This document shows, in pieces, positions 17,890 to 17,917 of a stretch of DNA of 64,000 nt; positions within the stretch are counted from its first letter, which is position 1, and every line of letters begins with the position of its first letter. The stretch is from a bacterium (GTDB taxonomy: Bacteria; Bacillota_I; Bacilli_A; RF39; UBA660), in contig CAVIDW010000001.1 in the NCBI GenBank assembly GCA_963641945.1, positions 31,136-95,135 on the forward strand. The letters are read 5' to 3'. Under the pieces are notes generated by a model, which saw only the letters and a list, made by a program, of their open reading frames with translations, was not told the DNA's origin and ran no database searches. The position numbers and the translations under genes were made by a program.

Positions 17890-17917
17890 TTCGACAATAT
17901 TCGACAAATTTCGACAA
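17890..17917 (+). promoter_or_regulatory. three direct TTCGACAA repeats at exact 10-bp phasing (Spo0A-box-like, TGTCGAA on the other strand)
   Basis: TTCGACAA at 17890-17897, 17900-17907 and 17910-17917, about 50-80 nt upstream of the comK-like start. Confidence 0.45.

What the first reader, a model, noticed from the sequence alone, without database searches (positions are those of the whole stretch)
17890..17917. Three helically phased TTCGACAA repeats (reverse complement of the Spo0A box TGTCGAA) in front of a ComK-family gene
The spacing is exactly 10 bp, placing all three sites on one DNA face, 50-80 nt upstream of the comK-like ATG and right after the dnaN terminator. TGTCGAA is the established Spo0A~P recognition heptamer (0A box). 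B. subtilis Spo0A binds both comK and oriC. A perfectly phased triplet next to the origin genes suggests Spo0A-type control of this gene, or of local origin activity.
Basis: partly seen in the sequence, partly recalled or inferred. Interest (0 to 1): 0.7.

Follow-up and report, generated by a model that had tools for sequence, protein, structure and literature searches.

The report
Conserved Spo0A-box triplet at comK-like promoter
Three perfectly spaced copies of the known sporulation-regulator (Spo0A) binding word sit where the -35 promoter element of a ComK-family gene should be. The arrangement is conserved across a whole order of uncultured gut bacteria, so it is a real regulatory site of a known kind rather than something new.

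Summary
TTCGACAA occurs at 17890, 17900 and 17910, and these are the only copies of the word (and of TGTCGAA) in the 64 kb window. The gene 53 nt downstream (17969-18424) belongs to the Pfam ComK family.

The window comes from an AT-rich, RF39-type uncultured gut Bacilli lineage. In 36 related sequences the three heptamers are 72-92% perfect. The GACA core (T1 G2 T3 C4 of the 0A box) is invariant apart from three middle-box substitutions. The 12-nt gap to a conserved extended -10 (TGnTAnnAT) is fixed in length but free in sequence. No -35 hexamer lies at a usable distance, so the array occupies about -51 to -25.

The same 7+3 tandem sits beside spo0A genes, orphan histidine kinases and spoVS in unrelated Firmicutes contigs, and in phage contigs.

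Best reading: a Spo0A~P binding array that controls this promoter. I lean towards activation, but the sign is unproven.

I could not show a spo0A gene in this lineage directly. The window does carry the sporulation genes yabG and yabP and a yabQ-like ORF, and published work predicts that RF39 forms spores.

Control of the replication origin is not supported.

This is a new member of a known kind, of moderate interest.

The parts
17854..17889 (+). dnaN intrinsic terminator: hairpin 17854-17871, then a T-rich run up to the first box
   Evidence: stem of 7 pairs, loop of 4, T-tail; 0.0 expected in shuffles. The dnaN stop is at 17849.
17890..17896 (-). Box 1 (distal): TTCGACA on the + strand, which is the 0A box TGTCGAA on the - strand; about -51 to -45
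   Evidence: Perfect in 31 of 36 related sequences.
17900..17906 (-). Box 2 (middle): TGTCGAA on the - strand; about -41 to -35. Its TCGACA lies 22 nt from the -10 hexamer.
   Evidence: Perfect in 26 of 36. The variants are mostly TTTGACA, AATGACA and TGTGACA.
17910..17916 (-). Box 3 (promoter-proximal): TGTCGAA on the - strand; about -31 to -25, 12 nt from the -10 hexamer
   Evidence: Perfect in 33 of 36; the most conserved box.
17926..17934 (+). Extended -10 promoter element TGtTATGAT (TG at 17926-27, hexamer TATGAT at 17929-34). No -35 hexamer at 16-18 nt. The predicted transcription start is near 17941.
   Evidence: Alignment consensus gTGtTAntATA, with TG, T and A conserved at 97-100%. 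The consensus promoter scan finds no canonical -35/-10 pair here. The start site is inferred, not measured.
17950..17959 (+). Ribosome-binding site AAAGGGGGAA
   Evidence: Conserved aagGGGg block 8-12 nt before the ATG in the alignment.
17969..18424 (+). ComK-family gene (151 aa), the gene the array controls
   Evidence: Pfam PF06338, E 4.5e-45, profile positions 3-151 of 152. 930 homologues. Found between dnaN and recF in all 42 related loci.

Best explanation
The three heptamers are a head-to-tail array of binding sites for the phosphorylated response regulator Spo0A (0A boxes, TGTCGAA, read on the minus strand). They sit on one face of the DNA at about -51 to -25 of the sigma-A-type promoter of the ComK-family gene. 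That promoter has a conserved extended -10 (TGnTAnnAT) and no usable -35, so the array takes the place of the -35 element. Spo0A~P molecules bound to the boxes decide whether RNA polymerase can use the promoter. This couples expression of the ComK-family protein to the cell's Spo0A~P level (starvation or entry into development). I lean towards activation (roughly 60:40), because the promoter has no -35 of its own and the geometry equals that of response-regulator-dependent promoters. Shown: the sites, their conservation, their fixed register to the -10, and the use of the same tandem next to spo0A genes elsewhere. Inferred: that Spo0A exists in this lineage and is the binder, the transcription start, and the sign of regulation.
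For: 1. Match to the motif.
- All three boxes match the 0A core 7/7 and TTGTCGAA 8/8.
- The core TGTCGAA and its contacts at G2, C4 and G5 are described in PMC3485338.

2. Selection.
- In 36 sequences whose ComK proteins are 62-98% identical, box 1 is perfect in 31, box 2 in 26 and box 3 in 33.
- The GACA core (T1 G2 T3 C4) is invariant in boxes 1 and 3 and 94-100% in box 2.
- The G5 position is 81-97% conserved, with C-to-T changes giving TGTCAAA.
- The 3-nt spacers only stay A/T, and five positions of the 12-nt gap are 33-50% conserved.
- Outside the array the heptamer is almost absent from 42 loci of 8 kb.

3. Layout.
- Two 0A boxes separated by 3 bp give a 25-30 bp Spo0A footprint, and phi29 origins carry four consecutive boxes (PMC2731898).

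4. Independent association.
- A truncated scan of metagenome contigs for TTCGACA-N3-TTCGACA (120 loci) put the tandem beside spo0A genes in L077, L101, L107 (its duplicate L104 carries the motif but gave no Spo0A hit), L143 and L152, plus a weak Spo0A-like hit in L094 (Pfam Spo0A_C run on L077, L101, L143; precomputed Spo0A_C on homologues of L107).
- It also lay beside histidine kinases without an adjacent regulator gene (L067, L157, L162) and beside spoVS (L116).

5. Recurring geometry.
- Three boxes, then 11-12 nt, then a -10 hexamer occur at an unrelated kinase gene (L157), at L066 and in AT-rich phage contigs (L174, L184, L185, L186, L176).

6. Lineage.
- Relatives are uncultured gut Bacilli MAGs, including Clostridium sp. 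CAG:1000. GTDB places family CAG-1000 in order RF39 (PMC8035907).
- The window encodes sporulation-type proteins: YabG (PF05582, E 1.4e-70), YabP (PF07873), a YabQ-like ORF, SpoVG and a SpoVT-like protein.
- PMC10868615 predicts RF39 to be spore-forming and treats spo0A as the prerequisite.

7. Precedent.
- Spo0A~P binds B. subtilis PcomK directly at five sites (PMC3297582).
Against: - No Spo0A sequence could be tied to this lineage. There is none in the 64 kb window, and three homology searches, a representatives search and cluster look-ups gave no assignable RF39 Spo0A.
- One machine-learning study scores RF39 MAGs as 0% sporulators (PMC12536801).
- There is no second array or single 0A box elsewhere in the window, so no regulon could be shown in this genome.
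- A dimer centred near -33 could equally occlude RNA polymerase, as with the repressing site R1 at B. subtilis PcomK and the phi29 A2c promoter. The sign of regulation is therefore open.
- The transcription start is inferred from the -10 consensus only.
Confidence: 0.65

Rival explanations
1. A different transcription factor that reads direct repeats binds the array. This could be an OmpR/PhoB-type or other response regulator, possibly the partner of one of the kinases of this lineage. The identity with the 0A box would then be a coincidence.
For: Three to four direct repeats between -60 and -25 on the coding strand, replacing the -35, is the classic layout of PhoB and PhoP promoters (own knowledge). 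spo0A was not demonstrated in the lineage. Two hybrid histidine kinases lie in the window at 38251-42025.
Against: The period is 10 rather than 11. The unit is a 7-mer whose G is at least 94% conserved (invariant in boxes 1 and 3), unlike TT(A/T/C)ACA. A 7/7 match repeated three times, conserved across an order, is a heavy coincidence. The same tandem lies beside spo0A genes in several unrelated lineages.
Confidence: 0.15
2. The ComK-family protein binds its own promoter (autoregulation, as in B. subtilis), and TTCGACA is the recognition word of this divergent ComK.
For: B. subtilis ComK activates its own promoter (PMC3297582). The gene is a transcription-factor family member immediately downstream.
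Against: No AAAA-N5-TTTT ComK box is present in 17850-17968 (read directly). The same tandem occurs at spo0A, kinase and phage promoters in organisms where no ComK gene is nearby. No second copy lies in front of any other gene in 64 kb or in 42 loci.
Confidence: 0.08
3. Spo0A binds here to modulate the nearby replication origin or chromosome organisation rather than transcription.
For: The array lies inside the dnaA-dnaN-recF-gyrB cluster in every relative. Spo0A binds oriC in B. subtilis and phage origins (PMC2731898).
Against: No DnaA box is in the dnaN-comK spacer. There are no 0A boxes upstream of dnaA or between dnaA and dnaN, either here or in relatives. The distance to the conserved extended -10 is fixed. 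The same module drives non-origin genes elsewhere.
Confidence: 0.04
4. The array is a CtsR operator (heptad direct repeats (A/G)GTCAAA-N3-(A/G)GTCAAA, also with a 10-bp period).
For: The architecture is the same, 7+3 direct heptads overlapping a sigma-A promoter (own knowledge). The box variants TTTGACA approach GGTCAAA.
Against: Position 1 is T in all three boxes of 35 of the 36 sequences (L016 box 3 has an alignment gap), never A or G. Position 5 is G in 81-97%. That gives two mismatches per heptad at defining positions. No ctsR was found in the window (using a query recalled from memory).
Confidence: 0.02
5. The array is a neutral 10-bp tandem duplication produced by slippage, with no function.
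For: It is formally a 2.8-copy tandem repeat.
Against: The heptamers are conserved while the spacers and flanks drift, across genomes whose proteins differ by 25-38%.
Confidence: 0.01

Closest known systems
Spo0A~P sites at the Bacillus subtilis comK promoter (A1-A3, R1-R2; PMC3297582)
   Same: Same regulator-target pairing: 0A boxes directly in front of a ComK-family gene, one of them overlapping the -35 region.
   Different: B. subtilis has five dispersed, imperfect sites (1-2 mismatches) mixed with ComK and Rok sites. It has a normal -35, and the sites give both activation and repression. Here there are three perfect, contiguous, phased boxes, no -35 and no ComK box, and the gene sits in the dnaA-gyrA cluster.
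Tandem 0A boxes separated by 3 bp (phi29/Nf A2c promoter and phi29 origins, PMC2731898; abrB promoter, own knowledge)
   Same: Identical 7+3 head-to-tail layout. Arrays of two to four consecutive boxes are footprinted as one 25-30 bp block.
   Different: Those sites repress transcription or block replication. Whether this array activates or represses is unknown.
Spo0A-activated sigma-A promoters spoIIG and spoIIE of B. subtilis (own knowledge; cited in PMC12090719)
   Same: 0A boxes overlap the -35 region of a promoter whose -35-like word is about 21-22 bp from the -10. Box 2 here is 22 nt from the -10.
   Different: The spoIIG boxes are weak and need high Spo0A~P. These are consensus boxes, and a third box lies in the spacer at -31 to -25.
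Pho boxes of PhoB (E. coli) and PhoP (B. subtilis)
   Same: Works alike: direct repeats on the coding strand between about -60 and -22, ending 10-12 nt before the -10 and replacing the -35, bound by a head-to-tail response-regulator oligomer.
   Different: The word is different (CTGTCAT or TT(A/T/C)ACA), the period is 11 bp and the protein family differs. The array is not a member.
CtsR operator
   Same: Heptad direct repeats with 3-nt spacers.
   Different: (A/G)GTCAAA against TGTCGAA: the two defining positions differ in every box.

Membership tests
Spo0A binding site (0A box array) | Core heptamer TGTCGAA | tested here: met
   Three perfect copies on the minus strand. The core is defined in PMC3485338 and PMC2731898.
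Spo0A binding site (0A box array) | The bases contacted by Spo0A (G2, C4, G5) are the constrained ones | tested here: met
   Across 36 sequences G2 and C4 are 94-100% conserved and G5 is 81-97%, with G-to-A as the commonest change. The spacers are free apart from A/T bias.
Spo0A binding site (0A box array) | Tandem boxes separated by 3 bp, as in footprinted sites | tested here: met
   The period is exactly 10 bp in the window and in all aligned relatives. PMC2731898 gives the reference layout.
Spo0A binding site (0A box array) | A spo0A gene in the same genome | not testable with these tools
   None in the 64 kb window. No Spo0A could be assigned to the lineage. Indirect support: yabG, yabP, a yabQ-like ORF and a spoVT-like gene in the window, and PMC10868615 predicts RF39 spore-formers. 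PMC12536801 disagrees.
Spo0A binding site (0A box array) | Binding by Spo0A~P and a regulatory effect | not testable with these tools
   Needs EMSA or footprinting and reporter assays.
Spo0A binding site (0A box array) | The same site type occurs at known Spo0A targets | tested here: met
   In other Firmicutes the tandem lies beside spo0A (L077, L101, L107, L143, L152), histidine kinases and spoVS. This could not be tested within RF39 itself.
ComK family (the downstream gene) | Full-length match to Pfam PF06338 | tested here: met
   E 4.5e-45, 153.6 bits against a cutoff of 22.3, profile positions 3-151 of 152.
ComK family (the downstream gene) | Acts as the competence transcription factor | not tested
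   No competence genes were examined. There is no solved structure of a relative.
ComK box (AAAA-N5-TTTT pairs) | An A4-N5-T4 motif in the promoter | tested here: not met
   None in 17850-17968 (read directly).
CtsR operator | Heptad (A/G)GTCAAA | tested here: not met
   Position 1 is T in all three boxes of 35 of the 36 sequences (L016 box 3 has an alignment gap) and position 5 is G in 81-97%.
Pho box (PhoP/PhoB) | TT(A/T/C)ACA or CTGTCAT repeats with an 11-bp period | tested here: not met
   The unit is a 7-mer whose G is at least 94% conserved (invariant in boxes 1 and 3), and the period is 10 bp.
oriC element | DnaA boxes or an unwinding element adjacent to the array | tested here: not met
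   No DnaA box with 1 mismatch or fewer lies between 17850 and 17968.

The most novel reading that the evidence does not exclude
In RF39-type bacteria with reduced genomes, the ComK-family gene may not be an ordinary competence regulator. It is a fixed member of the dnaA-dnaN-X-recF-gyrB cluster, it evolves as slowly as DnaN and RecF, and it carries the only consensus Spo0A array seen in the 64 kb origin-proximal window and the origin clusters of relatives. It could be the principal low-threshold output of Spo0A in these organisms, a core developmental or DNA-maintenance switch wired directly to Spo0A~P. The same three-box promoter module may have been copied by their phages to read the host's Spo0A state.
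Probability: 0.2. Interest if true: 0.6.

Novelty: new member of a known kind. Interest (0 to 1): 0.4.

Why it matters
RF39 is a widespread gut order with no cultured members, and whether it sporulates is disputed. A consensus, order-wide conserved Spo0A-type array in front of a highly conserved ComK-family gene gives a concrete, testable regulatory link in organisms for which no regulation is known. It argues that a Spo0A-like regulator is active there. It also offers a compact natural promoter module (three boxes, 12 nt, extended -10) whose logic can be tested in B. subtilis or in vitro. It does not change what is known about how Spo0A works.

Tried and rejected
1. Finding Spo0A in the window's lineage.
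- tblastn of Spo0A against the window and all loci found none in RF39 DNA.
- A homology search with a low-GC Spo0A (L107) returned a Clostridia species.
- The HMMER representatives search gave 1718 Spo0A-like representatives, of which only the top 150 are shown.
- I picked AT-biased candidates. Cluster look-ups gave no organism names or matching contig lengths.
- A profile search returned generic clostridial Spo0A.
- Contig look-ups for P0374 (GC 0.26) and P0323 (GC 0.36) could not be tied to RF39.
- Tetranucleotide similarity did not discriminate.
- The supplement of PMC10868615 held only genome lists.

2. A second array in the window. Relaxed tandem searches gave only chance-level hits.

3. 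Rejected readings.
- A sigma-H promoter: its -35-like AAGGAT is not conserved.
- A box used as a -35: the spacers are 12 and 22 nt.
- A streptococcal cin-box: wrong strand and wrong position.
- A LexA, CodY or parS site: no match.

4. Other checks that led nowhere.
- The exact ComK protein of the window is not on record in the contig index.
- PHROGs gave nothing for the small phage ORF.
- PMC205050 (spoIIG promoter) is not held, so statements about spoIIG geometry rest on my own knowledge.

Full report
**Observation**

The sequence reads tttttatttttTTCGACAAtaTTCGACAAatTTCGACAAgg, with the 8-mers at 17890, 17900 and 17910. They are the only copies of TTCGACAA, and of its reverse complement core TGTCGAA, on either strand of the 64 kb window. 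Tandem Repeats Finder reports a period-10 array at 17890-17917.

The array begins right after a terminator-like hairpin (17854-17871) and T-run that follow the dnaN stop codon at 17849. The downstream ORF is a full-length Pfam ComK-family protein (PF06338, E 4.5e-45). About 120 homologues of 151-154 aa fix its start at the ATG at 17969, not at 17930.

**Source and context**

- The window is 24.5% G+C.
- Gene order is rsmG, parB ... dnaA (15191-16591), dnaN (16659-17849), comK-like, recF, gyrB, gyrA.
- A scan of one genome per species found 42 loci encoding relatives of the ComK protein (45-98% identity). All are from uncultured gut MAGs labelled Bacilli, Mollicutes, Tenericutes or Clostridium sp., including Clostridium sp. 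CAG:1000.
- GTDB places family CAG-1000 in the order RF39 (PMC8035907). The lineage is therefore RF39 or close to it. This is an inference from names, not a phylogeny.
- In all 42 loci the order dnaA-dnaN-comK-recF-gyrB is kept. The ComK protein is about as conserved as DnaN and RecF.

**Comparative anatomy of the upstream region**

In 24 of 35 relatives with at least 62% ComK identity the triplet TTCGACA-N3-TTCGACA-N3-TTCGACA is perfect. In most of the rest one box, usually the middle one, is TTTGACA, AATGACA or similar. A MAFFT alignment of 37 upstream regions gives the consensus TTCGACAaAATTCGACAAAtTTCGACAAA-N6-T-gTGtTAntATA.

Counts over 36 sequences:

| Feature | Result |
|---|---|
| Box 1 perfect | 31 of 36 |
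| Box 2 perfect | 26 of 36 |
| Box 3 perfect | 33 of 36 |
| GACA core | invariant in boxes 1 and 3; 94-100% in box 2 |
| 3-nt spacers | only stay A/T |
| Five positions of the 12-nt gap between box 3 and the -10 hexamer | 33-50% conserved |
| Length of that gap | constant |
| TG-n-TA..AT extended -10 | 97-100% conserved at its key bases |

Outside this array the heptamer is almost absent from the 42 loci. This is the signature of selection on three protein-binding words held in register with a promoter, not of a neutral slippage repeat.

**Promoter geometry**

- In the window the -10 hexamer is TATGAT (17929-17934), with TG at 17926-27.
- No -35 hexamer lies at 16-18 nt. The TCGACA of box 3 is 12 nt from the -10 and that of box 2 is 22 nt away.
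- With the hexamer at -12 to -7, the boxes occupy about -51/-45, -41/-35 and -31/-25.
- The array therefore replaces the -35 element of an extended -10 promoter. The transcription start (about 17941) is inferred.

**Which protein binds**

The heptamer is the established Spo0A core TGTCGAA, with contacts at G2, C4 and G5 (PMC3485338). Two boxes separated by 3 bp are footprinted by Spo0A as one 25-30 bp block, and phi29 origins carry four consecutive boxes (PMC2731898).

As an independent test I scanned metagenome contigs for TTCGACA-N3-TTCGACA. The scan was truncated at 120 loci.

- Many high-GC hits are chance matches inside genes.
- Among the hits, the tandem lies next to spo0A genes in L077 (three tandem paralogues), L101, L107 (its duplicate L104 carries the motif but gave no Spo0A hit), L143 and L152 (a mix of low- and high-GC contigs), plus a weak Spo0A-like hit in L094.
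- It also lies next to histidine kinases without an adjacent regulator gene (L067, L157, L162) and next to spoVS (L116).
- For a scan of 120 loci, finding one particular gene family five or six times appears far above chance (no formal test was run).

A scan of viral contigs for the perfect triplet found 23 contigs.

- Several carry 4-6 consecutive boxes near contig ends.
- Five AT-rich ones (L174, L184, L185, L186, L176) show the same module as here: three boxes, 11 nt, then TGnTAnnAT. In four of them (L174, L184, L185, L186) it stands in front of a related 56-59 aa ORF of unknown function; in L176 in front of a different ORF cut by the contig end.
- The module also occurs at the kinase gene in L157 and at L066.

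The layout is thus a recurrent promoter type, associated with Spo0A wherever the neighbouring gene is informative.

**Is Spo0A present in this lineage?**

I could not show this directly. There is no Spo0A in the window. Every route to an RF39 Spo0A sequence failed.

Indirect evidence is fairly good:

- The window encodes YabG peptidase (PF05582, E 1.4e-70), YabP (PF07873), a YabQ-like membrane ORF, SpoVG, Veg and a SpoVT-like AbrB-domain protein. Their order, mfd-spoVT...yabG-veg-spoVG...yabP-yabQ-divIC-tilS-ftsH, resembles that of B. subtilis.
- A genomic survey predicts RF39 to be capable of forming spores. It found spoIIGA, spoIIM, spoIIP and spoIIQ present, and treats spo0A as the absolute prerequisite (PMC10868615).
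- A machine-learning study instead scores RF39 MAGs as non-sporulating (PMC12536801).

Presence of spo0A is therefore likely but unproven.

**Mechanism**

Spo0A~P would bind head-to-tail on one DNA face across -51 to -25. The promoter has no -35 of its own, while the boxes are under the strongest selection. The proximal boxes end 11-12 nt before the -10, as Pho boxes do. The box-2 word lies 22 nt from the -10, as in the Spo0A-activated spoIIG and spoIIE promoters (these two comparisons rest on my own knowledge). For these reasons I lean towards activation.

Repression by occlusion cannot be excluded. That is how site R1 works at B. subtilis PcomK (PMC3297582) and how the boxes at phi29 A2c work (PMC2731898). 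An extended -10 promoter can fire without a -35.

**Rivals**

- A different direct-repeat-binding response regulator is the main rival, because spo0A was not demonstrated.
- ComK autoregulation is less likely. There is no A4-N5-T4 box, and the module occurs at spo0A, kinase and phage promoters elsewhere.
- CtsR fails at two defining positions per heptad.
- The origin-control reading is not supported. There is no DnaA box in the spacer, no other 0A box in 64 kb or in the origin clusters of relatives, and the array is locked to a -10 element.

**Comparison with what is known, and novelty**

Direct Spo0A~P control of comK is established in B. subtilis (PMC3297582), and tandem 0A boxes are well known. 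What is new:

- the site itself;
- its perfection (three consensus boxes, against 1-2 mismatches in all five B. subtilis sites);
- its conservation across an uncultured order with reduced genomes;
- its target, a slowly evolving ComK-family gene built into the dnaA-gyrA cluster.

No paper linking RF39 and ComK was found. I rate it a new member of a known kind, of moderate interest.

Noticed in passing
window 24100-25200: The 1.1 kb intergenic region between gyrA and the SRP RNA holds nine parS-like sites TGTTCCACGTGAAACA with 0-1 mismatches on the better strand (0.05 expected by chance). It also holds the only two perfect DnaA boxes TTATCCACA of the window (24358, 24552). This is an unusually dense parS cluster next to the origin genes.
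   Followed up: partly
window 14920-15010: Upstream of dnaA there are two TTATCAACA words and repeated ATGTTAAC and TTGTTAACA words. These are probably the DnaA-box variant and oriC part of this AT-rich genome.
   Followed up: no
window 17969-18424; L001-L042: The ComK-family gene is a fixed member of the dnaA-dnaN-X-recF-gyrB cluster in all 42 related genomes, and is about as conserved as DnaN and RecF. In most Firmicutes this slot holds yaaA/rlbA (own knowledge). That is odd for a competence regulator.
   Followed up: partly
L174 109-135, L184 5989-6015, L185, L186, L176 (viral contigs, GC 0.26-0.29): AT-rich phage contigs carry the identical promoter module: three TTCGACA boxes, 11 nt, then TGnTAnnAT. 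In four of them (L174, L184, L185, L186) it stands in front of a conserved 56-59 aa ORF (MISKILRGKEKD...) with no PHROG match; in L176 in front of a different ORF (MVEKIILD...). The phages may read the same host regulator, as phi29 does.
   Followed up: partly
L178 39-100, L180/L181/L189/L191/L193, L183 and L186 213-239: Other viral contigs have 4-6 consecutive phased TTCGACA boxes, several within a few hundred bases of a contig end. This recalls the Spo0A boxes at phi29 replication origins.
   Followed up: no
L077 2331-4875: A metagenome contig (GC 0.34) carries three tandem spo0A paralogues (54%, 41% and 36% identity to the query) next to a tandem 0A box.
   Followed up: no
L035 about 3900-3960: One relative (63% ComK identity) lacks the TTCGACA boxes. 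In the same place it has two copies of TTCGTGCAC about 21 bp apart, possibly a switch to another regulator.
   Followed up: no
window 38251-42025: Two adjacent paralogous hybrid histidine kinase/response-regulator genes (630 and 620 aa, with multi-pass membrane N-termini) lie between rsmA and yabG, where B. subtilis has no such genes. They are candidate inputs to a phosphorelay.
   Followed up: no
P0244, P0245, P0248 (representatives search): Some public proteins of 390-450 aa contain three or four Spo0A_C-like stretches and no receiver domain.
   Followed up: no
window 13015-14875 and 12365-12787 (minus strand): Three ORFs (382, 210 and 140 aa) directly upstream of dnaA have no Pfam or NCBIfam match.
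   Followed up: no
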